This document shows, piece by piece, positions 462-17,022 of a DNA stretch of 17,022 nucleotides; within the stretch, counting starts at the first letter, position 1; each line of letters starts with the position of its first letter. The stretch is from assembly GCA_963709405.1 (NCBI GenBank), contig CAVPXM010000092.1, positions 1-17,022 of the forward strand. The letters run 5' to 3'. The translations under genes and the position numbers were made by a program. The stretch is from an uncultured Nitrososphaerales archaeon. GTDB lineage: Archaea; Thermoproteota; Nitrososphaeria; Nitrososphaerales; Nitrososphaeraceae. Under the pieces are notes generated by a model. The model had not been told where the DNA came from. It was given only the letters and a program-made list of their open reading frames with translations, and made no database searches.

Positions 462-612
462 TGAACAATAATCTCCAATTCTACTTCATCCGTATTGACA
501 TTGGATTACTTAATCCTTTTCTGTGTCGATATTCCTAGCGATATCCCTATTGTGTTATTCGTTGACTCGATTCGATACTTGGAATTTAGTGTGCTTTACT
601 TGAACATGTTTC

Positions 613-1111: not shown

Positions 1112-1237
1112 ACAAGTGAGTCATTCAGATTAATTCATTGCTACGTCCACTTTTGAAGAGAAAATAATGCCTGGCGTGCAATCAATTAGAAATCTTTTTA
1201 ATTCATTTGTGAAACTGTGCTATATAAGGGATATCGT

Positions 1238-1756: not shown

Positions 1757-2047
1757 TCAATCTTGGACGAGAGTAACTATCTAAAGACCAGATATACAAG
1801 TTGAGCAATAATATAATGACTGCAGCGATTGACATTTTGATGGCAAACGAATCTATTTTTCGTCTTGGTAATAGCCGACTAAATAGATTAGCATATCAGG
1901 ATGATGGCACTTGAAGGAAAGAATTTGTAACATAGAGTGTATATGTTAATGAAAGTTGATGGTACATGTAATATTGCTCTCAGAAATGTCCTATCACTTG
2001 ATCCTTGACAATCCTTAAGTAATTGTTATTAGGTAAGGTAAGATTAC

Positions 2048-2728
2048 ATGGAATTAAAAATAACGGCTGTCATAGTATTCTTGATAGCAAACCTGTTTAC
2101 AATAGGATTGGTCTCTTTCCAGTCGAGCATCGTTAATGAAACATATGCAGCGTCCTCGAATGCAACTAATGCAACTAATGCAACATCGAATACAATGCAG
2201 GCTGCTCTTCAAAAAGAAGCGCTCAAATTAACCCCACCATCTTCTTCTAACGATGCTCAAATAACAACGACGAAAAATTCTATTGTTTTGGGAAATCCAT
2301 CATATATAGAATATATCAAAAGCATCCGACAACAACCTTTAGTCCTGAATACTGGACTGCATGCCGTTGGAATGATATTCATAGGTAAAGGAACGGTAAA
2401 GGGTACAAGCTTTGTACAGACTGAAGGCAAAGCATTGATTATACCGTTGTCCCAAGGAATTGCAGATATCGTTGGTGGTGGGCTTATCAGAGCTGCGAAT
2501 GGAGAAGGTGGGAATGCAACTTATAGCTTTAGGGAAATTGGCCATTATAATCCATCAACTCAGACCGCTCAAGGAACTGCGAATCAGATCATGAATGGAA
2601 CAGGAGCAGCCATATTTAACGCGAACGCCACTGGAAGCTTGTCTTTCCTTAGCAATACTGTGGTAATGTTTAAAGATGAAGGTAATCCAAGTGGTGTTAG
2701 TACGATCAAAGGATGGGAATGGAAGTAA
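2048..2728 (+). CDS. Secreted/surface hypothetical protein, 226 aa, with NAT repeats and a C-terminal WEWK
   Basis: Signal-peptide-like N-terminus, Ser/Thr/Asn-rich linker, Gly-rich beta-strand domain; 7 N-X-S/T sequons. Confidence 0.8.
   Translation: MELKITAVIVFLIANLFTIGLVSFQSSIVNETYAASSNATNATNATSNTMQAALQKEALKLTPPSSSNDAQITTTKNSIVLGNPSYIEYIKSIRQQPLVLNTGLHAVGMIFIGKGTVKGTSFVQTEGKALIIPLSQGIADIVGGGLIRAANGEGGNATYSFREIGHYNPSTQTAQGTANQIMNGTGAAIFNANATGSLSFLSNTVVMFKDEGNPSGVSTIKGWEWK
2159..2185 (+). repeat. 9-bp tandem repeat x3 (AATGCAACT, AATGCAACT, AATGCAACA) encoding NAT-NAT-NAT
   Basis: Directly visible in the sequence. Confidence 0.9.
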
Positions 2729-3252
2729 CTATATTAGAAGAATAGAACAAGCCGAATCTTTCGACTTGCCCTTTTCCTATCGGTTTGATTATCATATATT
2801 TTATCCTAAAAGCTGGTGTTAGATTGGCCTGTCCTTGTCTGTGATCCACAAAATTGAATGAAAAATTAAAAATCGCCTCAGGAGCTATAGGAAGTCTTGA
2901 GTCAACAGGTAATTTCTTCATACTGATATTTGCCCCATGAGATAATTAAATAGTCTCATCGTGAGAAGAACTACTCCGGCTAAGATGATTGATGTACTCT
3001 TTTTATATGTGCATGTTTAGCCGTCAACATATTACTCATGAACTGCGAATTGAAAACAAAACAAAACGTCAAATATAGTTTCGCCTAGTCAGTCAGCTGA
3101 GCTACATGGGAGGTACAATCGGTAAATATCGCCAAACAATTAAAAATATGCTTTCAACATAATAGTTTTGATTCCCTAAAACGCATTATTTTAGTTGTGG
3201 CCCAGTCCAATAGTTAAAGAAGGATTAAGGTCGTTTTATTTTCTTCATTCTC

Positions 3253-4083
3253 TCACCTTGATACACTTGACTGCATTGATTTACAGATCATCATTTCAGT
3301 GGAAGGACTTTCCGTAATAACTGACAGCAATAGTAGTTCTATCGGATACAAGATATTACCTACTAAGTATGCCATCCTGTCGCTATGACGCACGAGTGAC
3401 GTAATGGTACGCCACATTAATTTCAAAACAGATCGATTCGTATCAATCGGCGCATTCATTAAAACAAACATTGGACGACGCAGTATTACTTCGAAGTTGT
3501 TTTCGCGCAACGCTTTTTGAATAACGCTCAATGATCTGCTAACTTGACGTGCAGATCTTAATGAATCCTGATGTAGAAAATTATCTGAAAAAATAAAGAG
3601 GCCGCCAGGTTTTAATAATGAAAAAATATTTTTGATGGCATTGTTGTATCTCGAATCATCTACAATATGGAATAATACATCAAATGCAGAAATAATGTCA
3701 AATTTATTTTGAAGAGTTTTATAGCCCGCTTCATCTCCAATGTCTAGCTGTAAGAATTCGTTGGATGGATACATTGATCTCAAATTCTCCACAGCTACCA
3801 TTGTTATATCTGTGCCAGTTATCCTAATTACGCCGAGGTCTTTCCACAGTCTCACATAAAACCCTGTACCTGAACCAATATCCAACACGTTCACATTTCC
3901 ATAGTCAATATTCAGCTTTCTGATTCTCTGCACGAAGACCCGCCGCCTAACCTTATACATATATTCATTATATCGCCTTCCGAGGCCTTGGAAGCCTGTG
4001 CCATGTAATCCAAAATTTTCTTTTAATCTCCATTCCCAATAATCTTTAGAATTTAAATCGCTCAACTTAGGTGAACAGAACAA
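3253..4083 (-). CDS. Class I SAM-dependent methyltransferase
   Basis: Motif I VLDIGSGTG, acidic GTDIT, FDIISAFDVLFHI, LLKPGGLFIF. True start may be TTG at 4065. Confidence 0.92.
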   Translation of the reverse strand: MFCSPKLSDLNSKDYWEWRLKENFGLHGTGFQGLGRRYNEYMYKVRRRVFVQRIRKLNIDYGNVNVLDIGSGTGFYVRLWKDLGVIRITGTDITMVAVENLRSMYPSNEFLQLDIGDEAGYKTLQNKFDIISAFDVLFHIVDDSRYNNAIKNIFSLLKPGGLFIFSDNFLHQDSLRSARQVSRSLSVIQKALRENNFEVILRRPMFVLMNAPIDTNRSVLKLMWRTITSLVRHSDRMAYLVGNILYPIELLLLSVITESPSTEMMICKSMQSSVSR

Positions 4084-4178
4084 AGTACAACATATAAAAA
4101 TCTAGTGACTATCTGATCAACATCTAAAAATTACTATCTTGCTCTTGTTGTTGTTAAGATACATCACTTATCTAAAAG

Positions 4179-5018
4179 TTAAGTATGAAATATGCTCTTT
4201 ATTTTTTCGACCTGTTTTTTTCTTACAAATTGTCTGAGCTCTTCATCATAAACACAATTATACCCTTCATTTTCTGCCTTATATGTAAGATAATAATAGA
4301 TCATATATAACGAGCCACGTCGCCCTGTTACAGTCCCGGTTGAAAAGTACTTGGCGAACCTTCCTAATGCATACATTGGATGATATCCCAGTGTATGCAT
4401 ACTAGCTCCAAATTCAAAGAAGCGATGATTCAATCCTAGAGGCCTTGTATGTCGATACTTTGCTTCTTCTATTACAGCGTATTTGTAACCAAGATATTCT
4501 GCCTCATACAGAATAGCAGATTCATAACCCATTTGTTCAGGATAACTACCATTCCATCTAGTCTTTTCAAAAAAGGAATTTCTTATATATCTACCAGCAC
4601 CATGAGGCATTTCAGGTTTGTGTTTAGTATAATTGCCCGATACTACAGCTACATCAGGATTAGAATCCAAATACGAGACGATCCTAGCAGCGTAATTGGA
4701 AGGATATTCTGTATCATCTGTAGCGATTAGATGATAGTCTGTTCTAACCAAGTTTCTTTGTTTCACGAGCTGTAACGCTGCATTCCAATTCCTAACAACT
4801 CTTCTTATATCATATCCAACATCGGGATTTGTAATTATGAATAGCTCACTCCAGTTATGTTTCAGTTCTTCAAGAATCACTGGTGTATTGTCCTTAGAGC
4901 CATCATCTATAACTATAACATATTCTGGCTTCAATTCTTGATTCCTTAATGAGAGTAGCGCCGACTTGATACTGTCTTCCGAGTTCCTAGATGTCACAAT
5001 AGCAAAATAACTACCCAA
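4179..5018 (-). CDS. Glycosyltransferase family 2 (GT-A fold)
   Basis: VIVIDDGSKDNT motif, N-terminal strand IVTSRN, DXD-like ATDDT. Confidence 0.9.
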   Translation of the reverse strand: MGSYFAIVTSRNSEDSIKSALLSLRNQELKPEYVIVIDDGSKDNTPVILEELKHNWSELFIITNPDVGYDIRRVVRNWNAALQLVKQRNLVRTDYHLIATDDTEYPSNYAARIVSYLDSNPDVAVVSGNYTKHKPEMPHGAGRYIRNSFFEKTRWNGSYPEQMGYESAILYEAEYLGYKYAVIEEAKYRHTRPLGLNHRFFEFGASMHTLGYHPMYALGRFAKYFSTGTVTGRRGSLYMIYYYLTYKAENEGYNCVYDEELRQFVRKKQVEKIKSIFHT

Positions 5019-5293
5019 TTAATTATAGGACTAATGAGTAACATCAATTTTAAAGTTCTTTAATCTTTTGTTACGAGGAATCGTGGATAGTATACCACTA
5101 CGTCGGAATTCTAACGAGAATCATATAAATCCGACCTGCAATAATAACAGAAGTACTTGATAGGACTATTTGAATTTCAAGATAATCAATTTGTTCTATA
5201 ATAAGTAATAGTGTTCAATCATCTTCACTCACAATCAAAGTCGAACCTTAATTATAACAAAAAATTTTGAATTCAATGATATTAGGATCAGTG

Positions 5294-6433
5294 CTAAGAA
5301 AGCTGATAGGCCTGAAGTATATTTTTTTCGTACCTTTCCCATATCAAATCAGTTTTAGCAAATCCGAACGAGTCTTGCCTTTTCTTATATAGTAAATCTA
5401 AGTGGTCTTTGAAATATAACAGTTGAGAAACCATCTCTTCATAGCTATCAAACACTGAGCAATGACCTTGGAGCGTTCTAACTACGGGCTGAATAGATGA
5501 TGAACACATGACAAGGGCACCAGCGTGAGCATATTCATATGGCTTGTTTGGGTTGATGAAGAGATGAGCCCAATGCTTCCTCCATGGCACTAGGCCTATT
5601 GAATGATTGGAGATTTCATTAAACATATCTTGCCTAGATAGAAATCCTTTGTATCTAACCTTATCAGTTGATTTATTCTCCCAGCCCAATATCGTGAGAG
5701 TGCCAATTCCATTGTTTTCAAATAGCTCAGTAAAGCCGACCATGTTCCGATGCGGATAACTATCTATATTATGACCATCGCTGCCCGCATACACTGATGA
5801 TAATGACTGATGACATTTTGGATATTCAATATTACTAGTCTCAGATGTGAGAGGGAAGTTTGGTACAACAAACAATTTGCTCGAGCCTAATTTTCTCATT
5901 TCGTTCGAAATAGAATCAGAAACAGTAATAGTTGGAGTGGAACAAATAATCTCTTTTTCCCACTTGGCCCATAATTTTATAGCATAATAGTTTATGATTT
6001 TTCTTCTAGCATTAGTAGTCAATTCGAGAAAATTGTGACCCAAAGACTTTGGCTTAGACTCATTTAACCTTGGCTTCATTTCATTCAGGAGCCTTGAAGA
6101 AGCTGACCAGTACTCATGATCATCGTATACAAAAGGTACTTGAAATTCCGAAATCATTCTTGCAGAAAAAATATTGTGTGCATGAACGATATCTGGTCTT
6201 GTCTCATCCAACACCTTTGCTAATTTTCTCTTCACCGATTCCCAATACATTGGAATACCTAACCTTGCTTTTGCGTTCCAATTGATTTGATAGATTTTAT
6301 GAAATAGAGTGGTTTCGTAGTTCGATGGCCTACCACAAAAAAAGACCTGATGTCCATTCCTTGCTGCCGTAATAGCTGATTTTTCGACTCTCCAATCGGG
6401 TAGGCCTTCGTGAGACAAGTGCAATATTTTCAA
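5294..6433 (-). CDS. Glycosyltransferase, GT-B/GT4-like
   Basis: MKILHL start, PDIVHAHN, VYDDHEY, ITVS, VVPNFP, PNKPYEYAHAG (GT4 C-terminal motif). Confidence 0.88.
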   Translation of the reverse strand: MKILHLSHEGLPDWRVEKSAITAARNGHQVFFCGRPSNYETTLFHKIYQINWNAKARLGIPMYWESVKRKLAKVLDETRPDIVHAHNIFSARMISEFQVPFVYDDHEYWSASSRLLNEMKPRLNESKPKSLGHNFLELTTNARRKIINYYAIKLWAKWEKEIICSTPTITVSDSISNEMRKLGSSKLFVVPNFPLTSETSNIEYPKCHQSLSSVYAGSDGHNIDSYPHRNMVGFTELFENNGIGTLTILGWENKSTDKVRYKGFLSRQDMFNEISNHSIGLVPWRKHWAHLFINPNKPYEYAHAGALVMCSSSIQPVVRTLQGHCSVFDSYEEMVSQLLYFKDHLDLLYKKRQDSFGFAKTDLIWERYEKNILQAYQLS

Positions 6434-6807
6434 TTCTCATGTATCATAATCTTATCAGTATTTTAATTCCTATCTTAACAGTGAGTACGAATAAGTCACA
6501 CATTGTTATAATGCTACGCGAGGCAAGGCCTGCCATGGAAATATTACATTCATGTTCATGGTTATGGATATGCACTATATGAAATACAATCGTCAGACTA
6601 GACATTATAATTATCGTTGAATATGGTCCGACTCGAAGTTAGCCTTTGATCGACAGATTGCGAATACGAAGTCTAAGTTCAGAGTTGGGGGCGCTAAAAC
6701 GGTTCCACTCAAAGGTTTCAAATGACTACGATTGGTGCTTCATAGTTACAGATGACAACCAACCAGGAACGAAAATCCACGCCACGCCTAAGCCTGAGAA
6801 AAATATC

Positions 6808-7716
6808 CTATGTTCTTGCATATAATGACTGCATCTGTGCTACAACGTTTAACGGATTATGTTCAATCGGCAAATTCTCATGATATTGTAAACGGTAGTT
6901 TAATACTTTAAGACCACACCCGAGGGCTTCCAGAGCCGTCTTGCTTAGGTTAGGCAATAGTACTCCGTTAACATATCTGATATCCACATATACTGCGTAT
7001 TTTTTCAGGAATTCAGGCATATCCCTGTACATAATTGGGTGTTTCGCTCTATCATAAACATTGATATTCAGACGCACATTATTTTTCATACAATAACGCA
7101 TGGTTAAATTGCAATCAGTTGCTTCCGTGTCGATCGTCAAAGCCTCGTTATCTGAAACTTGTCTGTTGTTAAATCCGCGCATAAAATGTTCAGTGTCCAC
7201 TGGATTCGGAATATATATTGCCTGTTTAACCTGTGCCAAGAGATCAGGTGTTGCAACTATAGTGGCATCAGACAGTCTTTGAGCCTTCTCGTGTAGCCTG
7301 TGTTTTAATAGCAGCCTATCGCGCATCATTCTATAGCTGTAAATTGACCTTATTGCCATATCGGATAACGTTGATTTATGTGGTAATTTCACCTTCTTGA
7401 GTCCTCTTATGTCAGTTCCATGGTAATGTAAGATTATCCTCTTTGATTTCCCAAGTTCTTTACGTAACAAAAATAAAACATCAATTCTACTGTGGACATG
7501 AATTATATCAGCTGATTCAGCATGCATTAAACATTCTTCATTGAATTCTTTCTCGGAGTTTGCAAGTATTATATATTCTTTGTAAAAGTCCTTTATTCCG
7601 TATTTATCCGAGCTGCGAGTGGTTAGTACCTTTGATTCGTGTCCTTGCAGTTGCTGAAACTTGGCAAGAACAAATGCTACACCTGCCTGATCGAATATAT
7701 GAAGAATCCGTAACAT
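6808..7716 (-). CDS. Glycosyltransferase, GT-B/GT4-like (short)
   Basis: RILHI, ADIIHVH, HYHGTDIRG, IPNPVD, ALEALGCGLKV. Confidence 0.8.
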   Translation of the reverse strand: MLRILHIFDQAGVAFVLAKFQQLQGHESKVLTTRSSDKYGIKDFYKEYIILANSEKEFNEECLMHAESADIIHVHSRIDVLFLLRKELGKSKRIILHYHGTDIRGLKKVKLPHKSTLSDMAIRSIYSYRMMRDRLLLKHRLHEKAQRLSDATIVATPDLLAQVKQAIYIPNPVDTEHFMRGFNNRQVSDNEALTIDTEATDCNLTMRYCMKNNVRLNINVYDRAKHPIMYRDMPEFLKKYAVYVDIRYVNGVLLPNLSKTALEALGCGLKVLNYRLQYHENLPIEHNPLNVVAQMQSLYART

Positions 7717-7733
7717 GTATTCCCGGTAGAGTA

Positions 7734-8252
7734 TTACACATTCTCAGGGTTTACTTTTGCATCGATGGTGTTGGTTTTTTGAGTTTGCCCATTATCTTGT
7801 GGTGCATTTATAGTCGATGATGGCCTGAGCGCGGCGGTTCGAAGACTACGCCGAGTTATCTTAGTAAGCATTTCTCTCATTTGCAGTTTCTCTTCCTCTG
7901 ATACCCTTCCATCGATTAAGTCGATTACAAACAACCACATCGTGGCTCCTATTTCATTTTCCTTAAAAAGGGCATCTTGTTCCACTCTCCACTGGCTTTT
8001 TCGATGCCAATACCCAATAAATATACCTAGGGGTACATAAACTGCTATGAAAAGAAGAGCAAATCCCCATATACTATGAAATACTGAATTAAATAACGGA
8101 GCTTTGTCGATCAGTAACTTGTACTGGATGGTTATAAAATTAGCAAAAGTCATTATAAATATTAAATAAATACTGTGGCCATTACGAAAATCGAGCCATC
8201 GCCTCCTTACCCAATTTCCAGTAGCTTTTCGTATAAGGTCTCTAGTGAGCAT
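7734..8252 (-). CDS. Hypothetical membrane protein (2 predicted TM helices), 172 aa
   Basis: Two hydrophobic segments followed by a charged tail; co-oriented in the cluster. Confidence 0.75.
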   Translation of the reverse strand: MLTRDLIRKATGNWVRRRWLDFRNGHSIYLIFIMTFANFITIQYKLLIDKAPLFNSVFHSIWGFALLFIAVYVPLGIFIGYWHRKSQWRVEQDALFKENEIGATMWLFVIDLIDGRVSEEEKLQMREMLTKITRRSLRTAALRPSSTINAPQDNGQTQKTNTIDAKVNPENV

Positions 8253-8295
8253 ATAGGCTTAATGATCCTTTTTACTGTTAAAATATGTTACGCAT

Positions 8296-9838
8296 TCATT
8301 TGATATGAGTTTGGTTGATAACCTTCGCCGGCTGCGTCATGTGTGAATACACTCTCGATATAGTGATGATTTCAGATGAATAAACGCTTTTGATCTTCAG
8401 GCCACGGAGATCAGGACTTTCTCCCTTCAATGCGAATAAGTAACTATTTTGGGATTTTAAATTTCGTAAAAAATCGACAAGACCGTCATTGTTATTGAAA
8501 AAATGAAAGGTCCTGCCTTTTTCAAGCTCTAGTTCCATCCATCCCCTTAAGTGACTTGCTCCAATTATAGTTGCATTTGGTTTGGTATTTTTATTGATCC
8601 AATCTATGGCAGACAATAGCTTAGGATTCTCCTTTATATCAACTGAATTGAACTGCATGCTGACTGGTTCAAACGATCCCACATATCCACGCACGATTTC
8701 ATACAGTATAAACGGGCTACGATATGGTAATGCAATATAGCTTATCCCTATAATACCGAATACCGTTATTGCCATTAAAAGGACAGAATACCCCGCCTTC
8801 AAATTTTGGGCACGGACCCTTCTGCTAAGGATGATGAACCCATATCCTGCGAAAATGGAAAGAAAAATTCCAGTCAGTATGATCCATCTGTTAGCAACCA
8901 AAGATTCATTATTTGGAAAGAGTATCCATGAAAACGAGCCAAAAAGAGTGATTAGGAGTGCTATTTTTAGGATTTTATTATTATTCTGGTATCGCAAACC
9001 TAGCAAAGATGTAGGCAATAACAGACCGTTCACAATAATAAAAGAAACTAACAGATTGAACCCGTTGTAAGAGTTGGGGTTTATTCCCGAATGTCGAATT
9101 GTAACTGCCTGCTGTTCAATAAAACTGAAATTAATAACGTTACTCCACAGATTAGAGCCCGTGAACACAGCGATTATAAATATACAGAAGGCAATAATTG
9201 AACTCACAAGGGCTATCCTACAACTGGATTTAACAGCATATATAAGTAGAGAAAGCGAAAATAATCCACCAACCATTCTGTCCGATACAACAATAATAGA
9301 GGATAAGATTAGCGATGATATCAGTTTCAGCAGTTTGTTCTCATTAATGCTTACTCTGTGAACAGCAATCAGTGAAAAGGCGAACAACATTAGTGAGATG
9401 GAAAATACATCTTTGTGCAAATCCCATGACGTACGAAGCACAGCCATTTGTACGATTACAAAGACTGATAGGAATGCGCTTTCTGCTATAGTTGTCTTGA
9501 ACATTCTTATCCCTATCACGAAGATTGAGACAGAAAGTATTCCAAACATGACCGTGGCTGATGTTAAAACGGCAATATATGGGGACGACCCGACAGCATT
9601 AGCCAATAAATGCAGCAGATAGACGTACAATGGAAATTCGTGCGAAGTAGTTTGCCAATGAAGATCGAAATTTGTCAGTACCTGGGATGTAATAGTTAAT
9701 TACATCGTAACCTATAGGATACGGATATGCGAGCACTTCGGGAACGAGTCTAAGGACGCAACCAGCTGAAAAGACGAGCGCAGCCGCACAATATTTATCT
9801 GTTACAAATCGTGAAATCGGTGAAATAAAGGAGTGCAA
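8296..9838 (-). pseudogene. Polytopic membrane protein, GT-C-like (~513 aa), split by a 1-nt insertion at ~9681-9682
   Basis: ORFs 9599-9838 and 8296-9630 join as ...YPIGYDVINYYIP-VLTNFDLHWQTTSHEFPLYVYLLH... if one G of CCAGGTA (minus strand) is removed. About 10 or more TM segments, a first-loop GYD motif and a soluble C-terminal domain (AIDWINKNT). Could be a sequencing indel. Confidence 0.7.
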
Positions 9839-9882
9839 TCTTGGTCAAATGGATGCCAAATTAATATCGTGTCTTGGATCAT

Positions 9883-11151
9883 TCATAGGTGATGTGTATC
9901 TTTAATCTCACGAGTTACAAACAATTTATACCAAATTTCTAAGCTTAATAATTGAAGCAGTTTGCTAATATATCTCGGATCTCCGGTTTGATCTATTCTA
10001 GATAATGCACTAAGATACCATTTCTGATCTATTATTTGTTCCTCAAATATCCGACCTCGATCCAAATTAGACGTTACAATCTCTTTCCCCTCATTTGACC
10101 ATAATGTGTTCAAGTCCATGCCAAATCCTATTTTTTCGTTCTCAATGAACTCATGCTTGGAGTTGCGTTTTAGGATAGATCGCAGTGGAATCTTCCCAAC
10201 ATTATTTTTAAAATCATATTTCAAATCTGGAGGAATTTTGGTGGAGAGAATTACAACTTCGTCATCCAAAAGGGGTGCTATTCCCTTAATATTAAAATGG
10301 TGAAAATATTTCTCATTTGTGGGTACGAAATCGTGCATTAACTTACCATGATAGTCTGCATACAACAACTGGTCTAGTGGTTCTAGATCGTTGTTGAAAT
10401 ATTTTTCGAATATTTCGTAAATTGAAAACCAATTAAATTTCATCTTTTCTGCGAACATTTTTTCTTGATCATCTACCCAATCACGCTCATGACATTGTAG
10501 ATAGATCTGAATACGTTCTAGCGAAGTGGATTTTGATGTAATGGTTGAAAGGAATTTCCTATATCTGAACGTATATCCTGCAAATAATTCATCACCACCA
10601 TCCCCAGTAAACAGGATATTAGAAGTAGATTTTGCCTCCTTGATAAAATAATATTGATATATATTCCATCTCGGTTCTTTAACTATGCTTAACATTTTGA
10701 CTAGATCTCTTAATGGATTTTCTACAACGATATGATTGAATCCTGCTCCTTTACTCTCTGATATCTGCTTAGCAATCAAAACTTCATGATCATCGTAGAA
10801 GCTTACGCCATAACAATTGATGTCGATAGCTGGAAATTCTTCTCGTATTAGCGAAAATATAAGATTCGAATCTACACCTGTGCTCAATGCAAGCGCAATA
10901 CGGTTAGCGTTATTTGTCTCAACAGACTTTTTTATAATACGACGTAGAGTTTTTTCTATTTCCAAAGAAGTCGGAATTGGTTCTATGCTTTTTCTTTGAG
11001 CCAAAATTTGATCCGTGGTAATATTAATAATTTTAGATGTATTTTTTGGATAGGAAGGGTCATATCTCAATGTCAGCAAATTGCATAGATTTATCAACGG
11101 TAAGTCGTACTTCTGCCTTTTAAAAAATATATCGTAAGACTTGAGGCGCAA
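9883..11151 (-). CDS. Asparagine-synthetase-like ATP pyrophosphatase (synthetase domain only)
   Basis: PP-loop variant ALSTGVDS, TGDGGDELFAGY, APLLD, GKIPLR, KIGF, LEIW; no N-terminal Cys Ntn-glutaminase domain. Start uncertain. Confidence 0.88.
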   Translation of the reverse strand: MRLKSYDIFFKRQKYDLPLINLCNLLTLRYDPSYPKNTSKIINITTDQILAQRKSIEPIPTSLEIEKTLRRIIKKSVETNNANRIALALSTGVDSNLIFSLIREEFPAIDINCYGVSFYDDHEVLIAKQISESKGAGFNHIVVENPLRDLVKMLSIVKEPRWNIYQYYFIKEAKSTSNILFTGDGGDELFAGYTFRYRKFLSTITSKSTSLERIQIYLQCHERDWVDDQEKMFAEKMKFNWFSIYEIFEKYFNNDLEPLDQLLYADYHGKLMHDFVPTNEKYFHHFNIKGIAPLLDDEVVILSTKIPPDLKYDFKNNVGKIPLRSILKRNSKHEFIENEKIGFGMDLNTLWSNEGKEIVTSNLDRGRIFEEQIIDQKWYLSALSRIDQTGDPRYISKLLQLLSLEIWYKLFVTREIKDTHHL

Positions 11152-11256
11152 ATCTGATTTCCAAAATAAAGCAAAAGGAATCTATGAATCTGCGCTGCTC
11201 TTAAATTCTATATATTGATAGAATTTTAATGCATAACAACGATAGCCCTTGAAACT

Positions 11257-12138
11257 TCAAGGATTCATTCGTTTGTATGCTCCTTCCAATATCACCCCTA
11301 TTTTTTCTGGGGAGTGATATTTCTTTACATATTCTATTCCTTCTTTTGATAGTCTTTGTTGGGCGCTTGCGTCTTCTATTAAAGTTTCTAGATCCTGCCT
11401 AAAATTCTGCATAGTAGTCAGAAAGATTGGTGGTTTGTATTTATCGTATAACTTGTCAGAGACGTATGCGATGACCGGCTTTCCAAGTGCCATGCCTTCA
11501 AGCTCGAATCTCCCAAACCAGCCAATTTTCGGAATGATCTTTCCGATCACGATGTCGCAAGTAGAAATTAACCTTAATGTCTCTTCATACGAAAAGCCTA
11601 GTACTTTGATTATGTCACACTTACCAGTCTCCTGCAACGAATCTAATATCGCAGAATAAACATCATCATGCCCATACATTTTATAATAAGGATAATGTGC
11701 TATTCTGACTCTCCCTTCACGTTTATTTTCTGCCCGCGCTACCAACTCGTCGATATAAACTGGACTAGGAAGCCACGTTCCATTAGGGGCATATTGTAAC
11801 AAGTCAGGAGTCGAGACTAGACAAAAATCATCATCATGCTTCCCCCTAAGATCGTCACCGTGATAATGCTTGATGTATATCTTCCCACGTTTTCGTTTTT
11901 CTAAACCCACTCTTAACGAGCCGTATGGATAATGATAATGCCATATATCATATTCTTGCAACCTTCTAAATACTTTCCACCTTGAAAAAGGGGATTTGTA
12001 ATTTATCATAATTCCACCAAACTGATTATAGATCTTTGTGTTGAATACATAAACATCCGACAAATGTCCTTGTAATGTTTGCACCCGGGAAAGAGCAGAG
12101 CCGATACCTGAGGTATTGTTTATATGCGCAATTTTCAT
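11257..12138 (-). CDS. Glycosyltransferase, GT-B/GT4-like (short)
   Basis: MKIAHI, YDIWHYH, HYHGDDLRG, FGRFELEGMALGKPVI. Confidence 0.87.
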   Translation of the reverse strand: MKIAHINNTSGIGSALSRVQTLQGHLSDVYVFNTKIYNQFGGIMINYKSPFSRWKVFRRLQEYDIWHYHYPYGSLRVGLEKRKRGKIYIKHYHGDDLRGKHDDDFCLVSTPDLLQYAPNGTWLPSPVYIDELVARAENKREGRVRIAHYPYYKMYGHDDVYSAILDSLQETGKCDIIKVLGFSYEETLRLISTCDIVIGKIIPKIGWFGRFELEGMALGKPVIAYVSDKLYDKYKPPIFLTTMQNFRQDLETLIEDASAQQRLSKEGIEYVKKYHSPEKIGVILEGAYKRMNP

Positions 12139-12238
12139 GTCCGTGGTAACTAGTAAAGTGACATAATAGATAATGAACCTATTGAGATCGCAGGAATAAA
12201 ACGTAGCTAGAAATAACTAGCTAAAAACCAGTAAATTC

Positions 12239-13165
12239 CTAAATTTCAGAATTTTTATCAACGTGCATCTTGTATTTTTTCTCAAGAATCTGATACTTTT
12301 GTAAGTCGACAAGTCTATTGAATTCATCGAACGTAGTCATCATCTTTCTGTGTTTTACTGTCGTACCTTTCCTTTTTAACTCTGTAAAGACTTCATTAAC
12401 TGCGTAAGTAGCTGCATATAATCCTGATAATGGGAAAACTGCAATTCTATATCCAATATCAAGGAGTCGTTTTGCGTTCATATTCGGTGTGATTCCATCT
12501 TCGATCATGTTTGCGACCAATGGCGCGTCAATTTCGTTAGTAACTTTCTTTAATTCTGCAACTGATCTTGGAGCTTCTATAAAAATCACGTCTGCACCAA
12601 CCTCTCGGTATGCTCTTCCGCGTCTGATAGCCTCATCCAATCCTAGGGGTGCTCTCGAATCTGTTCTCGCAACTACAATGAACTCTTTGCTCTTCCTTGC
12701 TTCCAGAGCTGCTCTCAACTTCGAGATATAATCTTCCATTCCGATAACATCTTTACCTTGCATATGTCCGCATCTTTTTGGCCAGATTTGATCTTCTATA
12801 AAGATACCGGCCGCGCCTATCGATTCTAAATCGCGAACGATTTTCCAAACGGTTAACGGATTGCCATAACCTGTATCTATATCGACTATAACTGGCGAAT
12901 CTACAGATCGAATAATTCGAGTTGCATTATCTATCGTTTCGCCAGCATTTAAGAAGCCGTAGTCTGGCATCCCAAGCAGCGAAGCAGCAGAACCATATCC
13001 GGTCTGAAACATAGCATCAAATCCAACATTCTCTGCAATTTTTGCAGTCAATGCATCAAAAACTCCTGGAAGAACCAGAATATTCTTCTTGTCCTCAATC
13101 TTTTCTCTTAAAGATTTATTATTCTTCTGCTTCCTCAATTGCTTCTGTCTAAAAGGAGATTGCAA
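12239..13165 (-). CDS. prpB: Isocitrate lyase/PEP mutase family lyase, probable 2-methylisocitrate lyase
   Basis: DIDTGYG, IEDQ..PKRCGH, VARTD, GADVIFIEA, ANMIEDG.TP motifs. KRCGH indicates the lyase branch; exact substrate not provable from sequence. Confidence 0.75.
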   Translation of the reverse strand: MQSPFRQKQLRKQKNNKSLREKIEDKKNILVLPGVFDALTAKIAENVGFDAMFQTGYGSAASLLGMPDYGFLNAGETIDNATRIIRSVDSPVIVDIDTGYGNPLTVWKIVRDLESIGAAGIFIEDQIWPKRCGHMQGKDVIGMEDYISKLRAALEARKSKEFIVVARTDSRAPLGLDEAIRRGRAYREVGADVIFIEAPRSVAELKKVTNEIDAPLVANMIEDGITPNMNAKRLLDIGYRIAVFPLSGLYAATYAVNEVFTELKRKGTTVKHRKMMTTFDEFNRLVDLQKYQILEKKYKMHVDKNSEI

Positions 13166-13794
13166 TTATTAAAGGATCTGTTTCGATGGATCTTCAATAT
13201 GACCTTTCGATATATTTGAGAAAACCCAATTCTATCCTTATGTTTATTATTTGGACTTACAATGCTATTCCAATTTCTTAATTTTGTGATCTGTTCTTAT
13301 GAATAATGATGTCTGAATACCCACTCCTCAACAAGATATTGCTGCTATTCATATTTCTTGATTATTAATTATATATCAAAAGTATTCCCCTCAACTTGCG
13401 ATATTTTTAATTGCCATTTTTGAATATGACTATAACTCAATTAAAGCCTGTACTTCAAGACTAGACTACTATGTCTCCTATCCGTGAAATTTTGATATTT
13501 ATCCAAGCGAATATGCTCCCCAGGACATAGCAAAATGCATTTGCCCAATGGCGTATTGATTGGAGCGGCTGTAGGGAATAATGAGAATTGAACATCCTAA
13601 TGGCAACGATATCAATACCTGACAATGATTGGTCATCAATATGGGATTACCTCAGAATATGATTCATGCTCATCATTTATTCGCAGTTGGTCAAATATCT
13701 ACAAGACACTAATTTGAGATCACAGAAATAACTATTGGATAACGCAAAGGAGATTTGTATATTTTTTTGCTAGGATTGCTTAGGAAAGTGTTAT

Positions 13795-14040
13795 ATGAAT
13801 ATGAGTAAAAGAAAGGGCATACAAAAATTGCAAGACGACGATGGTCACTTGTCCAGATTAAAAAAGAATGCTCTTGACCAGAAGGAACCTGTTGTAGTAA
13901 AAACCATTATTGATACTATTGCAGCATTTGGGAGGGAGGGAATAGAACCTATACTAGAAATTCTGAGGCAGTCGACAGATAAGTCAGTGAAAATACACGG
14001 AAGTGAAGTAATTAGACGAATAAAGATGCTAAATCCTTAA
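13795..14040 (+). CDS. Small helical (HEAT-repeat-like) hypothetical protein, 81 aa
   Basis: Pattern VVKTIIDTIAAFGREGIEPILEIL...DKSVK resembles HEAT/PBS helical hairpins. Confidence 0.6.
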   Translation: MNMSKRKGIQKLQDDDGHLSRLKKNALDQKEPVVVKTIIDTIAAFGREGIEPILEILRQSTDKSVKIHGSEVIRRIKMLNP

Positions 14041-14227
14041 TTTTATGATTCAATTTCCCCTATGACGCAGATTGTATCGACCTCCACTATTAATTGAAAC
14101 AGTCATAGAGTAAATGTCTCGACTGTATTTTTAACCCGATCCGAGCCGCTGCTTTCTAACCCATATATTGTCAAACACTAATCGGTCGATCACATTGTTG
14201 GGAAGGAATCGGTTTCTGTGATATAAA

Positions 14228-14365
14228 ACTCCCTAGTTGTAACACGATCACCCTAGACGCAACACAGTACGAGAACTTCCGGCTTCGCAACAGGGAGTGC
14301 TGTTGCAATCTCGGGTGCTCTCATAACATGTTGCACGCGGGTGCTAAGTGTTGCATGATGGGAGC
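14228..14365. repeat. Dyad-symmetric ~137-bp site: three CACCC-N5-6-GCAAC boxes, GCAACAG-GGAGTG-CTGTTGC core, three inverted boxes
   Basis: G(C/T)AAC at 14239, 14259, 14287 and GTTGC at 14302, 14330, 14350 are exactly mirror-symmetric about 14296/14297 (20 and 28 bp spacing in both arms). Confidence 0.93.
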
Positions 14366-14402
14366 TAATAAGTTAAAGCTCTGATTGTCTTAAAAGATAT
14401 GA

Positions 14403-14594
14403 TTGGTAAGCATTGAAGAAGTAAAGAAACATGCTGTTGAGATTATAGAGAGTCAGATTCATCTGACTCTGCTTTTAACCCAGTTAAATAATAAAGAAAT
14501 TGAAGAATTTAATCAATGGTATAAAACTAACTGGCATTATATGAAATTGCAGGAATTTCTGCAACTTATGGCACAGAAACGGCACACTCGCTAG
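14403..14594 (+). CDS. Small hypothetical cargo protein, 63 aa
   Basis: TTG-started helical ORF with an AT-rich TATA-like stretch (ATAAGTTAAA, 14368-14377) directly inside the left site. Confidence 0.55.
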   Translation: MVSIEEVKKHAVEIIESQIHLTLLLTQLNNKEIEEFNQWYKTNWHYMKLQEFLQLMAQKRHTR

Positions 14595-14625
14595 TTATTT
14601 CAAGGCTGCTATTGTTGCGTCAATT

Positions 14626-15883
14626 TCAATGGTGTTGATTCCAGCAGTCCGCCTGTCTCATTAGGCTTTCCACTTTGTTATGACCTAAATGCAATTCTAA
14701 CCCCGCTTTTTCCGCTGGAGTCTGGTTCTTTAATGCCTGATGAGGTCTAATGAAATTATAATGAATACGCATAGCATCGACTAGTTCCTGTGTGGGATTT
14801 GCTTTATCCAGTCCATGCGTGACCGTCTCTCTATCCCTTACGGTTCCATTCAGCCTTTCGACTTTAGAGTTTAATCCCTGATGTCCTGAGCCTATGCTTC
14901 TGATGTTTTGGATCTTTGGATTCTTTAGAGTAAAAAGTTCTTTATTAAATGCATCATCATACGCTGGCAATCCGTCATGAATTAGGGCTGAAGGTAAAGG
15001 GCGCGCGCCGTTTCATCTCCTTTAATAGCGCTACACCTGATTTGGTGTCACGTTTCTGACTTATCCTAGAACATATCCAGAACCTAGTAGTAGAATCCAT
15101 TAGATTCCATAGCCATGAATAGTGATTATCGAATTGTCTGTTAGTATGGTTATCTGGATTACTTAAAGTCATTTTAGATTCATTATTTTCCTTACGGACA
15201 TGTAGCATCATTTCGTCTACCTGATAGACACCTCCGACCTGTGGGACCAGACTGTCCACATATGGCTGAACGGTTTTACTGAACTTGCGTAACCATCTAC
15301 AGATAGAAGAGCAATTAATTTTAAAATTATAGAACTGCTTAAGGTGGTCGGCTATCTTACGCAGCGATACTCCTTTAAAGTAAAGGTCGACGGCAGCGGT
15401 GATTAGTTTTGCAGATGCCTTGGAATTCTCGAATGCTGGGTTTATGGTAAATCGATAGTTGCAGACTTTACATAGATAACGTTGAAGGTCACCACTGTTT
15501 TTGTTGTGTCTAACTACGAACTTTTTATAATTAGCGCTTAGGCACTTTGGACATACGATCTGACCTATATCGATAGCATTGTAATTACCGATATTCTCAT
15601 TATTAACTAACTGAGCAAATGTATCCTGATAGATTTTCTTTCGTAATAACTTGCTAAATTTAACGGCATGGACGTGCTTGCATTCCAGATGTCTAAATGC
15701 AAAATCAGGACATTCACACATCCAGCCATCGCTGTAATTACGAGCTACGATATACCACGTATTAGGATCTGACTGTGAGCGCACTTTATAGGTGAGTTTG
15801 TTTAATCGCTGAAGCGCTATGTCTGTATTGGCGATTTCTAGTCCTCTCATCTCCCGCGCAGTCAGATCCGTGTATGCAACCAT
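14626..15883 (-). pseudogene. DDE transposase/integrase (IS6-like) with N-terminal SWIM zinc finger, C4 zinc ribbon and HTH; ~418 aa, split by a 1-nt insertion at ~14996-15001
   Basis: SWIM CECPDF..LECKH; CPKC..CKVC; HTH GVSLRKIADHL..ICRWLRKF; catalytic VDEM, IHDG (only after frame correction: RAPLPSALIHDGLPAY) and VERLNGTVRDR; C-terminal HYNFIRPHQAL..TPAE. Confidence 0.9.
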
Positions 15884-15947
15884 TGATATCAATAGTTACA
15901 TACATAGATTTATAAATGTTATTATCGATATCAATAGATATCAATAT
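15882..15947. promoter_or_regulatory. Divergent promoter/operator: palindromic TATA box ATTTATAAAT (15908-15917) flanked by GATATCAATA x3
   Basis: GATATCAATA at 15885-15894, 15927-15936 and 15937-15946; perfect palindrome ATTGATATCAAT at 15882-15893 overlapping the transposase ATG. Confidence 0.7.
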
Positions 15948-16088
15948 ATGGCAATGAAGAGAATCCTAGTATCGGTGTCTGAAGATTTGTATGACAGTAT
16001 AGAAAAAGAGAGAAAACTTCGTAAGCTTGAAACAGTTCCAGAGGCAACAAGAGCTATCTTAAGTGATTATTTCTTCACAGAGAACTAG
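15948..16088 (+). CDS. Ribbon-helix-helix (CopG/Arc/MetJ-like) DNA-binding protein, 46 aa
   Basis: MAMKRILVSVSEDLYDSIEKERKLRKLETVPEATRAILSDYF shows an alternating beta strand plus two helices; ATG at 15948 within the longer 15819-16088 ORF. Confidence 0.8.
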   Translation: MAMKRILVSVSEDLYDSIEKERKLRKLETVPEATRAILSDYFFTEN

Positions 16089-16902
16089 CGGAAAGACATT
16101 CATACGGTTCAGAGTTATCTAATAACATGTCGTATTCAGAGCAATATCGATTAAAGAAAGCCTGATTTGCTTTCAGGTATGTAACATCGCTTGGTCTTGA
16201 ACTAGAATCACTTCCTACTGGTCGGCTTTCGACATATATCCACGCCTTATCCGCATTGTCTCTATCTATAATTATTATACTATGTTGTGAGATAGAATCA
16301 TACAGCCTGATTCGTACTAGGTCTTTGAATTCATTTTTTAATTTGCATAGTATTTCGAGTGACCCTTGAATCTGTTCCTTTATATCTTCACCTCCATGAT
16401 ACATCTTGCTTTGGACTTCTATAGATGATGAATCAGGATTTGATAATAAGAAAGTGATATGCACCTTTCTGGATAGCAATCCTTTCAGGACGTCGTAATT
16501 TGCATATGTGACAATCCTAAACGTTATTGCTAGCATTTCTATCCGTCCTTCAGCTTTGTAAAGCATCTCATTGAACGGTAGCTGAGATCTATTCTCATAA
16601 TGTTGTATACCATTTTTAATTGACTGTTGGGTTATGAGTGGTTTTGGTTCTGACATCTTTTCTTTAGGAATGATAACTTCCTCCACTGATAGAGGAGACA
16701 ATTTTATATCATTCCTGCTAAACCGATTGTTAATTTTATCTCTAAATCCCCATACAAATAGGCCAATAATACCAGCAGCAATAAAATATGGAATAACGTT
16801 TAGTAGAACACTATTCAATGGCCACCAACTCATGAAAATGCCCAGAATCATAATTGCTACGAGAACGACAATGCCAATCCCTGCTACTACTTCTTTCTTC
16901 AT
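16075..16902 (-). CDS. Membrane-anchored protein (2 TM) with a C-terminal DUF5919/PLD-like domain, 275 aa
   Basis: Two N-terminal hydrophobic helices; IEMLAITF, ITFLLSNPDS, IRLYDSISQHSIIIID, IYVE and FFNRYCSEYDML pattern recalled as DUF5919-like. Confidence 0.65.
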   Translation of the reverse strand: MKKEVVAGIGIVVLVAIMILGIFMSWWPLNSVLLNVIPYFIAAGIIGLFVWGFRDKINNRFSRNDIKLSPLSVEEVIIPKEKMSEPKPLITQQSIKNGIQHYENRSQLPFNEMLYKAEGRIEMLAITFRIVTYANYDVLKGLLSRKVHITFLLSNPDSSSIEVQSKMYHGGEDIKEQIQGSLEILCKLKNEFKDLVRIRLYDSISQHSIIIIDRDNADKAWIYVESRPVGSDSSSRPSDVTYLKANQAFFNRYCSEYDMLLDNSEPYECLSASSL

Positions 16903-16950
16903 AACCCTTTTGAATCAGTATTTTAATAAAGGCTATAATAAGCCTCACCG

Positions 16951-17022
16951 AACACCCGTCTTGCAACACAATCACCCTAGGTGCAACGGCTTGTGAGAGC
17001 ACCCTAGTATGCAGCAGGACTT
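16951..17022 (+). repeat. Second copy of the three-box arm (direct repeat of 14227-14298; inverted relative to 14300-14365), cut off by the window end
   Basis: CACCC-GTCTT-GCAAC (16953-16967), CACCC-TAGGT-GCAAC (16973-16987), CACCC-TAGTAT-GCAGCAG (17000-17017); ungapped 45/68 identity to 14227-14294 at offset 2724. Confidence 0.92.

What the first reader, a model, noticed from the sequence alone, without database searches (positions are those of the whole stretch)
14226..17022. Candidate DDE-driven gene-cassette system: a 2724-bp unit between directly repeated, symmetric recombination-like sites
Seen: a complete two-armed site at 14228-14365 and, exactly 2724 bp later, another left arm (16951-17017). 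The two align without gaps but at only ~66% identity, with conservation concentrated in the boxes. The window stops 5 nt into what would be the 6-nt central spacer. No target-site duplication is evident (GGAGTG vs GACTT). Known: ordinary IS6 elements have short single IRs, 8-bp TSDs and no cargo; abutted ends occur in IS3/IS21/IS30 circle or dimer junctions. Inference: units here are stacked end-to-end, or integrated site-specifically at a matching arm. That would give an integron-like array in which a DDE enzyme rather than a tyrosine recombinase moves gene cassettes. I do not recognise this as a described system.
Basis: partly seen in the sequence, partly recalled or inferred. Interest (0 to 1): 0.92.

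Follow-up and report, generated by a model that had tools for sequence, protein, structure and literature searches.

The report
Stacked site-specific IS6-like archaeal transposons
The "two-armed site" is where one end of an old, decayed transposon meets the start of a newer related one, because this family of archaeal jumping genes keeps inserting at the same spot just upstream of certain gene promoters, building small stacks of cargo-carrying units.

Summary
There are three ~70-nt arms, each with three CTGYTGCAA-N-GGGWG boxes, at 14227-14296 (-), 14297-14366 (+) and 16951-17020 (-), 2724 bp apart. The unit 14297-17020 is an ordinary-style DDE transposon. It has inverted arms, a frameshifted IS6-related transposase (SWIM + zinc ribbon + DDE_Tnp_IS240/rve_3), a small RHH-like gene and a conserved membrane-protein gene. 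Relatives give clean 10-bp target duplications, including a filled/empty pair (G004/G005).

The outer arm is a relic of an earlier copy. On the sister contig C30 the relic tip, a 10-bp spacer and the inner element's flank show the same 10-mer twice. The window has lost 10 bp of that junction.

Across Nitrososphaeraceae genomes, family members sit at one nucleotide position, 27 nt from a CTAGYGATA motif upstream of a PadR-like gene (26 of 121 genomes; many sites empty). They also sit at like positions upstream of SufB and SufC genes.

Re-use of one target builds arrays. One genome has four units separated by the identical 10-mer, carrying Kiwa, TIR and ATPase genes.

So this is not an integron-like recombination site. 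It is a site-specific, stacking, cargo-carrying IS6-like family that my searches did not find described. What lies past 17022 could not be read.

The parts
14041..14226 (.). Sequence between the stop of the conserved 81-aa ORF and the outer arm; inferred leftover interior of an older, mostly deleted element
   Evidence: Shared with C30 but unlike the corresponding stretch in G006, G001 and in the empty or filled sites of G003, G005, G004. No match to other elements apart from the arm. Inference only.
14227..14293 (-). Outer (relic) arm: right end of an earlier family member, three boxes, its 3-nt tip missing
   Evidence: R1 56.5 bits, model positions 3-70; nhmmer E 1.6e-15. 96% identical to the C30 copy, which keeps the full tip.
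14294..14296 (.). GGA: what remains of the 10-bp spacer (the left copy of the target duplication)
   Evidence: The pairwise alignment with C30 shows a 10-nt gap in the window between the outer arm and GGA.
14297..14366 (+). Left terminal inverted repeat of the element (three boxes)
   Evidence: R1 65.7 bits; alignment A1.
14403..14594 (+). 63-aa ORF, doubtful gene
   Evidence: Mechanical ORF; no Pfam hit; one weak BLASTP match to an ORF in the G021 element.
14626..15892 (-). Transposase pseudogene: SWIM-like CxC..CxH, zinc ribbon, HTH and DDE core; reading frame broken near 14970-14975
   Evidence: Two ORFs, 14975-15892 and 14626-14970. Pfam rve_3 and InsA zinc ribbon. NCBIfam IS6 51.7 bits, IS1 43.3 bits. 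Intact homologues hit DDE_Tnp_IS240 above the gathering score. The C30 and G001 copies read through the break point in one frame. No indel at that place in the contigs of four runs.
15882..15950 (.). Divergent intergenic region with three copies of a GATATCAATAG-type repeat or palindrome (operator-like)
   Evidence: the repeat finder D10, I2, I4, I5, I16. The stretch 15893-16073 is conserved in many elements, including transposase-less ones.
15948..16088 (+). 46-aa ribbon-helix-helix-like gene, part of the family core
   Evidence: Weak RHH_5 hit, E 0.072, below cut-off. 49% identical to an ORF in G008 el.1. DNA conserved in L007, L036, L038, L039, L048, L085.
16075..16902 (-). 275-aa membrane protein (N-terminal TM helices + DUF5919-like C-terminal fold): recurrent accessory gene of the family
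   Evidence: No Pfam or PADLOC hit. 14 homologues, all 'hypothetical'. 40-42% identical ORFs in the G021 and G077 elements. The Atlas model aligns to DUF5919-bearing clusters, TM 0.55-0.62 (a lead only).
16951..17020 (-). Right terminal inverted repeat of the element
   Evidence: R1 61.1 bits; 48/70 identical to the left repeat.
17021..17022 (.). TT: first two bases of the flank, where the contig ends
   Evidence: Agrees with the first two bases of the C30 right flank. Contigs in three runs continue 424-782 nt further, but their letters were not shown.

Best explanation
Window 14297-17020 is one 2724-bp member of a family of IS6-related DDE transposons of Nitrososphaeraceae that my searches did not find described. 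Its ends are ~70-bp inverted arms. Each arm carries three copies of a box whose core, CTGTTGCAA, matches the cTGTt/caaa inverted-repeat motifs reported for the IS6 family, followed by GGGWG. These boxes are most likely three transposase-binding sites per end (inferred).

The family core is a ~420-480-aa transposase (SWIM + zinc ribbon + HTH + DDE_Tnp_IS240/rve_3), a divergent small RHH-like gene and a membrane protein. Other members add cargo. Insertion makes a 10-bp target duplication (shown in relatives).

Target choice is site-specific. The tip lands 27 nt from a CTAGYGATA motif, immediately upstream of the TATA-like stretch of a PadR-like regulator gene and about 47 nt before its ATG. It lands at equivalent positions before the SufB and SufC genes.

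Insertion leaves the recognised side intact and duplicates the 10-mer, so the same target can be hit again. The newcomer then lies next to the promoter, and the older copy is pushed outwards and decays. The outer arm 14227-14293 is such a relic. On the sister contig C30 the order is relic tip | 10-mer | element | same 10-mer | promoter. The window's version has since lost 10 bp (the relic's 3-nt tip plus 7 nt of the 10-mer).

The window's transposase is frameshifted, so this copy is probably immobile by itself. What reads the target (the transposase's extra N-terminal domains, the RHH protein, or promoter-bound host factors) is not known.
For: Family and ends. Intact homologues score 34.3 and 38.1 bits on PF13610 (cut-off 27) plus rve_3, and 77-84 bits on NCBIfam IS6. 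The box core matches the IS6 IR motifs quoted in PMC7986276 (passages). Eleven arms align without gaps, with 23 invariant columns.

Transposition with a 10-bp TSD. G004 carries a 2481-bp element between two copies of one 10-mer, and G005 has the same flanks with a single copy and no element. Perfect 10/10 pairs occur in G000:C30 and G006, G008:C10 and G066:C20. 8/10 pairs occur in G021, G002:C87 and G002:C105.

Relic and re-use. In C30 the spacer equals the right-flank 10-mer. The window differs by a 10-nt gap. The outer arm and its flank are ~96% identical between C92 and C30, while the inner arms diverge after ~20 nt and the cargo differs.

Site specificity. The tip-N30-CTAGYGATA pattern gives 30 matches in 26 of 121 genomes against 2 control matches. 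Of the 30, 26 have exactly N30, and the unconstrained tip bases read AAC, GAC or AGC in almost all. The PadR flank is present in 103 of 121 genomes. Of 20 PadR loci sampled, 15 are empty, 4 are occupied at the exact position by other arm types, and 1 holds a decayed arm. All genus g1 genomes were checked: G003 and G005 are empty, while G000 (two alleles), G001, G002, G004 and G006 hold different elements, one in opposite orientation. TSD pairs are identical within a genome but differ between genomes.

Other targets. These are SufB (G008, G066) and SufC-like (G019, G110, G141) genes, with the ATG 45-51 nt from the tip.

Arrays. In G008 the same 10-mer occurs four times, between the SufB promoter, el.1, el.2, el.3 (18 kb) and el.4. 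In the PWM scan of 47 tips in 45 loci, all 11 tips (8 junctions) with an opposing tip score above 9 have a spacer of exactly 10.
Against: The bases after 17022 were not seen, so the right-hand duplication of this copy is inferred from C30 (2 of 2 visible bases agree). The window's junction has 3 nt, not 10, and I explain this by a deletion that I cannot date or prove.

One stacked junction (G118:C4) has a spacer unlike the promoter-side flank. In G099:C123 both ends abut another arm type, with the same 10-mer in inverted rather than direct orientation, which simple re-insertion does not explain.

The strict A-type junction pattern over 238 genomes gave spacers of 10 (4), 0 (2), 23 (2) and 8 (1), so 10 is modal and not universal. 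The zero-spacer cases are only 18-nt tips.

The loci scanned were chosen because they held arms or the PadR flank, and related genomes are not independent. No experiment shows binding of the boxes, activity of the transposase, or what recognises the target. IS6-family scores are below NCBIfam's curated cut-off (125).
Confidence: 0.75

Rival explanations
1. One reading: the two-armed palindrome is a recombination site at which a DDE enzyme integrates or excises cassettes, integron-like, with crossover in a short central spacer and no target duplication.
For: The arms are symmetric and fold weakly on themselves (DNA fold z -2.2; 3 of 200 shuffles fold as well). Two-armed junctions recur in several genera. 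Transposase-less units exist. Arrays exist.
Against: Every well-preserved unit has its own inverted pair of arms and a 10-bp direct duplication, and a clean empty site exists. Single insertions at the same site lack any partner arm (G006, G004). The spacer equals the flanking target. The two arms of the window's site are only 39/70 alike. No tyrosine or serine recombinase lies in the unit.
Confidence: 0.07
2. End-targeting: the transposase (or its transpososome) prefers to insert right beside a resident end of a related element, as I recall being reported for IS30 and IS911, and this preference rather than the promoter-side signal creates the abutted arms.
For: Abutments join different arm types (an A arm beside a GTTAAC-box element in G002:C105; G039:C57). 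The G118 junction's spacer does not match the promoter flank. G099:C123 has partner arms on both sides.
Against: First insertions at the same nucleotide occur without any resident arm (G006, G004, and most of the 30 matches), so a promoter-side determinant is sufficient. In all arrays that could be oriented (C30, G021, G008, G066, G002:C105) the stack starts at such a site. The two mechanisms are not exclusive.
Confidence: 0.12
3. Junction of a tandem dimer or an integrated circle of one element (as in IS21, IS30 and IS3-family intermediates; recalled), meaning both arms belong to copies of the same element.
For: The abutted inverted ends have a spacer about as long as the TSD, which resembles such junctions.
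Against: The outer and inner arms are only 56-64% identical. No second copy lies upstream: nhmmer finds no partner arm in 1-14226 and there is no transposase there. In G008 the stacked units differ in size, arm type and cargo.
Confidence: 0.03
4. No site specificity: one ancient insertion upstream of the PadR gene was inherited vertically, and selection removed insertions elsewhere.
For: The locus is syntenic across the genus. Kin are not independent. Some TSD pairs are decayed (7-8 of 10).
Against: Empty sites occur in 2 of 7 genus g1 genomes and in 15 of 20 sampled loci. TSD pairs are identical within genomes but differ at about half their positions between congeners. Arm types, cargo and orientation differ at the same nucleotide. 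The same geometry is seen at SufB, SufC and an M1-peptidase gene.
Confidence: 0.03

Closest known systems
IS6/IS26 family insertion sequences
   Same: The DDE domain matches PF13610 (DDE_Tnp_IS240) above its cut-off in intact copies. The best NCBIfam match is IS6. The terminal box CTGTTGCAA matches the family's conserved cTGTt/caaa IR motifs (PMC7986276, passages). Longer IS6 clades with zinc-finger N-terminal extensions are known (same paper).
   Different: The TSD is 10 bp, not 8. The arms are ~70 bp with three boxes, not 15-20-bp IRs. The tip is GTNC, not GG. The transposase is 420-480 aa and has a SWIM-like module. The elements make simple insertions with cargo, whereas the review names only one passenger-carrying IS6 member. 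No directly repeated IS copies or pseudo-compound transposons were seen. Insertion is site-specific. NCBIfam scores are 77-84 bits against a cut-off of 125.
Tn7 and Tn7-like elements at attTn7-type sites
   Same: A DDE-superfamily transposon inserts at a fixed distance from a recognised sequence that it does not destroy, next to a conserved gene. Different elements can accrete in tandem at one site and build islands (PMC11014353, seen only in the search listing and the start of its abstract; the rest is recalled).
   Different: No TnsB/TnsC/TnsD-like genes were seen here. There is a single transposase, a 10-bp rather than 5-bp duplication, no sign of target immunity, and the target lies upstream of promoters rather than at a gene's 3' end.
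Casposons and integrase-borne elements stacked at one target in Thaumarchaeota
   Same: Tandem integration of different elements into the same target, with TIRs and TSDs, in the same group of archaea (PMC6563490, passages).
   Different: Those elements use Cas1 casposases or tyrosine integrases and are much larger. The elements here are IS-sized DDE elements.
IS30, IS21 and IS3-family abutted-end junctions and IR-targeting
   Different: Here the two ends belong to different, diverged elements, and the spacer is a copy of the chromosomal target. No evidence of circles or dimers was found.
Integrons
   Same: Cargo-bearing units accumulate site-specifically next to a fixed chromosomal point. If the promoter-side model holds, the newest unit lies next to that point.
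   Different: There is no tyrosine recombinase and no attI or attC. Units carry their own ends, their own promoters and often a transposase. Insertion duplicates the target.

Membership tests
IS6/IS26 family | DDE transposase of the IS240/IS6 type | tested here: met
   PF13610 scores 34.3 and 38.1 bits (cut-off 27) in intact G006 and G077 homologues. It is also precomputed on nearly all of the 120 listed homologues. The window's own copy is split; its N part scores 51.7 bits on NCBIfam IS6.
IS6/IS26 family | Meets NCBIfam's curated equivalog threshold for an IS6 family transposase (125 bits) | tested here: not met
   76.6 and 84.2 bits. Sources name the proteins only 'DDE-type integrase/transposase/recombinase' or 'integrase core domain-containing protein'.
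IS6/IS26 family | 8-bp target-site duplication | tested here: not met
   10 bp in G004, G000:C30, G006, G008 and G066. The 8-bp figure is from PMC7986276.
IS6/IS26 family | Short (15-20 bp) IRs with GG tips and cTGTt/caaa motifs | tested here: inconclusive
   The motif CTGTTGCAA is present at the tip and again in two inner boxes. However, the arms are ~70 bp and start with GTNC.
IS6/IS26 family | Cointegrate products: directly repeated IS copies flanking passenger DNA | tested here: not met
   None was seen in the loci read. The units are simple insertions with inverted arms.
IS1 family (including the ISMhu11 group) | IS1-type transposase (NCBIfam cut-off 100 bits; DDE_Tnp_IS1) | tested here: not met
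   43-48 bits, covering only the zinc ribbon, the HTH and the first D. No DDE_Tnp_IS1 hit.
Integron | IntI tyrosine recombinase with attI and attC sites | tested here: not met
   No recombinase domain in the unit's ORFs. The units have transposon ends and TSDs. The rest of the window's ORFs were not scanned for IntI.
Tn7-like transposons | TnsA/B/C core with a target selector | tested here: not met
   The elements read hold one transposase plus small or cargo genes. The AAA_15 ATPase in G008 el.1 matches defence ATPases (NsnB, AriA, GajA), not TnsC.

The most novel reading that the evidence does not exclude
A whole clade of IS6-related transposons in ammonia-oxidising archaea recognises the upstream edge of particular core promoters with single-nucleotide precision. 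The target is the 10 bp just before the BRE/TATA-like stretch, ~47 nt before the ATG of PadR-like, SufB and SufC genes. Recognition may go through promoter- or operator-bound host proteins rather than DNA sequence alone. Because the signal survives insertion, the site works as a growing landing pad on which cargo units pile up head-to-tail. These units include Kiwa, TIR and ATPase defence genes and a conserved RHH + membrane-protein module. The result is a DDE-driven functional analogue of an integron or attTn7 island in archaea.
Probability: 0.3. Interest if true: 0.85.

Novelty: new variant of a known kind. Interest (0 to 1): 0.62.

Why it matters
IS6-family elements are known for near-random, cointegrate-forming transposition with 8-bp duplications. 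A related archaeal clade with long multi-box ends, 10-bp duplications, cargo and nucleotide-precise promoter-proximal targeting would widen what that superfamily is known to do.

It would also give a simple, single-transposase example of site-specific DDE insertion in archaea. That example is testable with a mini-element and a PadR-promoter target.

The stacking explains how small defence islands (Kiwa, TIR and ATPase genes in G008) can be assembled in Nitrososphaeraceae without integrases. The fixed landing site is a ready marker for strain-level polymorphism in soil metagenomes. For this window itself the result is modest: one decayed copy beside the stump of an older one.

Tried and rejected
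1. Extending past 17022. The window is the whole contig.

3. A very degenerate junction pattern was mostly noise and its list was cut (512 matches not shown). I drew no count from it and replaced it with the strict pattern.

4. The simple regex box scan and nhmmer in G000 found no further arms. PWM hits under ~23 bits in G000 look like chance.

5. Programmed frameshifting was considered for the broken transposase. I rejected it because the C30 and G001 copies read through the break in one frame, other copies are broken elsewhere (stops in G002; 1- and 19-nt gaps in X5), and no slippery-site analysis was done.

6. I looked for a likeness between the RHH-side repeats (GATATCAATAG) and the target motif (CTAGYGATAT). 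Only GATAT is shared, which is not evidence.

7. The relic interior 14041-14226 matched nothing else.

8. Literature. Searches, and word searches inside PMC6563490, PMC7986276 and PMC13343696, found no description of this family, its 10-bp TSD, its target or its arrays. In PMC13343696 the words Nitrososphaer, SWIM, passenger and 'target site' do not occur. Supplements are closed. Table S3 of PMC6563490 (IS coordinates) may list related copies under some family name. PMC6807381 and PMC11014353 were seen only as a search listing and the start of the abstract. IS30/IS21/IS911 behaviour and Tn7 details are recalled, not retrieved.

10. Unpublished genomes. G062, G100 and G122 are among the 121 genomes counted, and G233 is among the 238. 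One of the 30 matches (G100, probably chance) and one 23-nt-spacer junction (G233) rest on them. No main claim does.

Full report
**What is in the window**

The window is an entire 17,022-bp contig (C92) of a 4.83-Mb, 100-contig assembly. Three arms of about 70 nt lie at 14227-14296 (-), 14297-14366 (+) and 16951-17020 (-).

A profile made from the six arms of this genome finds only these three and three on contig C30 (E 5e-17 to 2e-15). Gapless identities are:
- 48/70 (left/right arm of the unit)
- 45/70 (right arm/outer arm)
- 39/70 (left arm/outer arm)

Random 66-mer pairs average 17.6 +/- 3.7 matches. Each arm has three boxes of the form CTGYTGCAA-N(4-6)-GGGWG. The one correction is that the terminal three bases (GTN.../...NAC) belong to the arms. 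This follows from 29 aligned tips and from a filled/empty site pair.

**The unit**

Between the inverted arms lie four features:
- A transposase gene on the minus strand, split into ORFs 14975-15892 and 14626-14970.
- A divergent 46-aa gene with a weak ribbon-helix-helix hit (E 0.072).
- An operator-like repeat cluster at 15882-15950.
- A 275-aa membrane protein gene, 16075-16902 (-).

The transposase has a SWIM-like CxC...CxH motif, a zinc ribbon, an HTH and a DDE core. The intact homologues from G006 and G077 score above Pfam's cut-off on DDE_Tnp_IS240 (34.3 and 38.1 bits against 27) and on rve_3. Their best NCBIfam model is IS6, at 77-84 bits, below the curated 125.

The box core CTGTTGCAA matches the conserved cTGTt/caaa motifs reported for IS6-family inverted repeats (PMC7986276, passages).

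The window's copy is out of frame at about 14970-14975, whereas the C30 and G001 copies read through in one frame. No indel shows there in the contigs of four public runs, so it is a real lesion.

The protein family is large: 1346 proteins at E <= 1e-10. Sources name them only generically.

The 275-aa protein and the RHH-like gene recur in other elements, even in ones without a transposase. They therefore belong to the family core rather than being random cargo. The C-terminal fold of the membrane protein resembles DUF5919, which is found fused to SAVED, HEPN and HTH modules (a lead only).

**The sister locus**

The whole window is colinear with C30:160446-184463 at 90-99% identity. The PadR-gene flank that follows the element on C30 occurs only once in the assembly. 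I read C92 as a strain variant, or a collapsed paralogue, of that region.

On C30 the order is: outer arm with its complete tip, a 10-mer, a 2178-bp element with a truncated transposase, the same 10-mer again, then the promoter and ORF of a PadR-like regulator followed by prs.

The outer arm and its upstream flank are about 96% identical between C92 and C30. The inner arms diverge after about 20 nt, and the interiors share only 714 bp of transposase at 92%. Relative to C30 the window lacks 10 nt at the junction: the relic's 3-nt tip plus 7 nt of the 10-mer. The window's last two bases agree with the start of the C30 right flank.

**Proof of transposition with a 10-bp duplication**

- G004 has a 2481-bp element between two copies of one 10-mer.
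- G005 has the same left and right flanks with one copy of that 10-mer and no element.
- Perfect 10/10 pairs flank elements in C30 and G006, G008 and G066.
- 8/10 pairs flank those in G021, G002:C87 and G002:C105.
- A 7/10 pair flanks the G077 element.
- Element sizes run from 0.95 to 18 kb.

**Site specificity**

The transposase is found in 23 of 61 related genomes, and A-type arms in 37 of 121 family genomes.

The pattern 'arm tip - 30 nt - CTAGYGATA' gives 30 matches in 26 of 121 genomes, against 2 for the reversed control. The spacing is exactly 30 in 26 of the 30, and the three unconstrained tip bases nearly always read AAC, GAC or AGC.

By comparing the contig coordinates, I count about 16 of these matches at the PadR-like gene. 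That gene's flank is present in 103 of 121 genomes. The remaining matches lie at other loci that carry the motif, for example before an M1 peptidase gene in G019.

Of 20 PadR loci fetched without regard to occupancy:
- 15 are empty.
- 4 carry arms of other box types (GGTAAG, GTCAAG, and a GCTGCG variant) at exactly the same nucleotide.
- 1 has a decayed arm.

Within the window's own genus, G003 and G005 are empty. G000 (both alleles), G001, G002, G004 and G006 are occupied by different elements:
- G001's transposase faces the other way.
- G002 holds a GTTAAC-box element with a 374-aa transposase, beside an A-type relic arm.

The duplicated 10-mers are identical within genomes but differ between congeners. 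The insertions are therefore independent and recent relative to speciation.

A second and a third recurrent target lie before SufB (G008, G066) and a SufC-like ATPase gene (G019, G110, G141). At all three genes the ATG lies 45-51 nt from the tip and a TATA-like A/T stretch follows the 10-mer. I infer, but have not shown, that the element lands at the upstream edge of the core promoter.

**Stacking**

Insertion duplicates the 10-mer and leaves the promoter side intact, so the same target can be used again.

In G008 the 10-mer occurs four times. It separates the SufB promoter from el.1 (5.1 kb), el.1 from el.2, el.2 from el.3 (18 kb), and el.3 from the arm of el.4. The el.2 link between contigs C10 and C76 is inferred from matching unusual arms and the identical spacer.

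Cargo in that stack:
- An AAA_15 ATPase resembling NsnB, AriA or GajA (el.1)
- A TIR-domain protein (el.2)
- A KwaA+KwaB pair (el.3)

In a PWM scan of 47 confident tips in 45 loci, all 11 tips (8 junctions) with an opposing tip score above 9 had a spacer of exactly 10. A strict A-A junction pattern over all 238 family genomes gave 9 junctions against 1 control. The spacers were 10 (four), 0 (two, which are mere 18-nt tip palindromes), 23 (two) and 8 (one).

In every oriented stack (C30, G021, G008, G066, G002:C105) the array begins at a promoter site.

**Exceptions**

- The G118 junction spacer does not match its promoter-side flank.
- The G099:C123 element abuts GTTAAC-type arms on both sides, with the same 10-mer inverted.
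- The window's own junction is shortened.

The two-armed site is best read as the scar between an old right end and a new left end, not as a crossover site.

Comparable stacking is described for casposons and integrase-borne elements in Thaumarchaeota (PMC6563490, passages) and for Tn7-like elements (PMC11014353, listing only). My searches found no description of it for an IS6-related family.

**What remains open**

- The bases beyond 17022.
- The agent that reads the target.
- Whether a resident end also attracts insertions.
- The roles of the RHH-like and membrane proteins.

Noticed in passing
window 1-14369 versus L001 / G000:C30:160446-182789: The whole window is a 90-99% identical, colinear variant of part of contig C30. 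C30 holds about 10 kb more (C30:170046-180046) between the matches to window 11537 and 11596. The window looks like a second strain's allele binned into the same genome (contamination 3.67%).
   Followed up: partly
L035 (G008:C10) 3747-12614 and L085+L056 (G008:C76) 1-20638: An array of four stacked family members is separated by one identical 10-mer beside the SufB gene. It carries an AAA_15 ATPase (NsnB/AriA/GajA-like), a TIR-domain protein and a KwaA+KwaB (Kiwa) pair. This is a small defence island built by transposon stacking.
   Followed up: partly
L038 (G099:C123) 2560-2600 and 3995-4040: A 1.4-kb transposase-less element is flanked on both sides by GTTAAC-type arms pointing at it, with the same 10-mer in inverted (not direct) orientation. 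The implied pre-insertion spacer would be a perfect 14-nt palindrome. I could not explain this.
   Followed up: partly
G000:C21:107737-109923: A second, intact 377-aa relative of the transposase (about 30-35% identity), with its own divergent small gene, lies next to a 217-aa ORF with a DNA-methyltransferase-like motif. Its ends were not found by the A-type arm models.
   Followed up: no
L089 (G248:C35) near 4021-4040; also G127:C307:2060-2079: Two 18-nt arm tips are joined tip-to-tip with no spacer and without the inner boxes. This may be a footprint or a collapsed junction.
   Followed up: partly
G109:C243:2354-2700: Two arm tips about 275 bp apart are each followed outward by the identical 36-nt promoter-type flank in mirror orientation. 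This is a miniature element whose flanks are themselves inverted repeats.
   Followed up: no
window 14354 and 15870 (loose ends): Contigs of other soil runs follow the window up to 14354 or 15870 and then switch to other sequence. At 14354 the new letters resemble the C30-type inner arm. Several variants of the unit therefore co-occur in soils.
   Followed up: no
window 12239-13165 (-): A PEP-mutase/isocitrate-lyase family gene (Pfam PEP_mutase, E 1.8e-48) lies upstream. It is part of the conserved neighbourhood that ends at the insertion hot spot.
   Followed up: no
L039 (G077:C97) 3206-7282: A 4.1-kb family member at the PadR site carries its own winged-helix (HTH_34/PadR-like) gene and a proteasome-subunit-like gene as cargo.
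   Followed up: no
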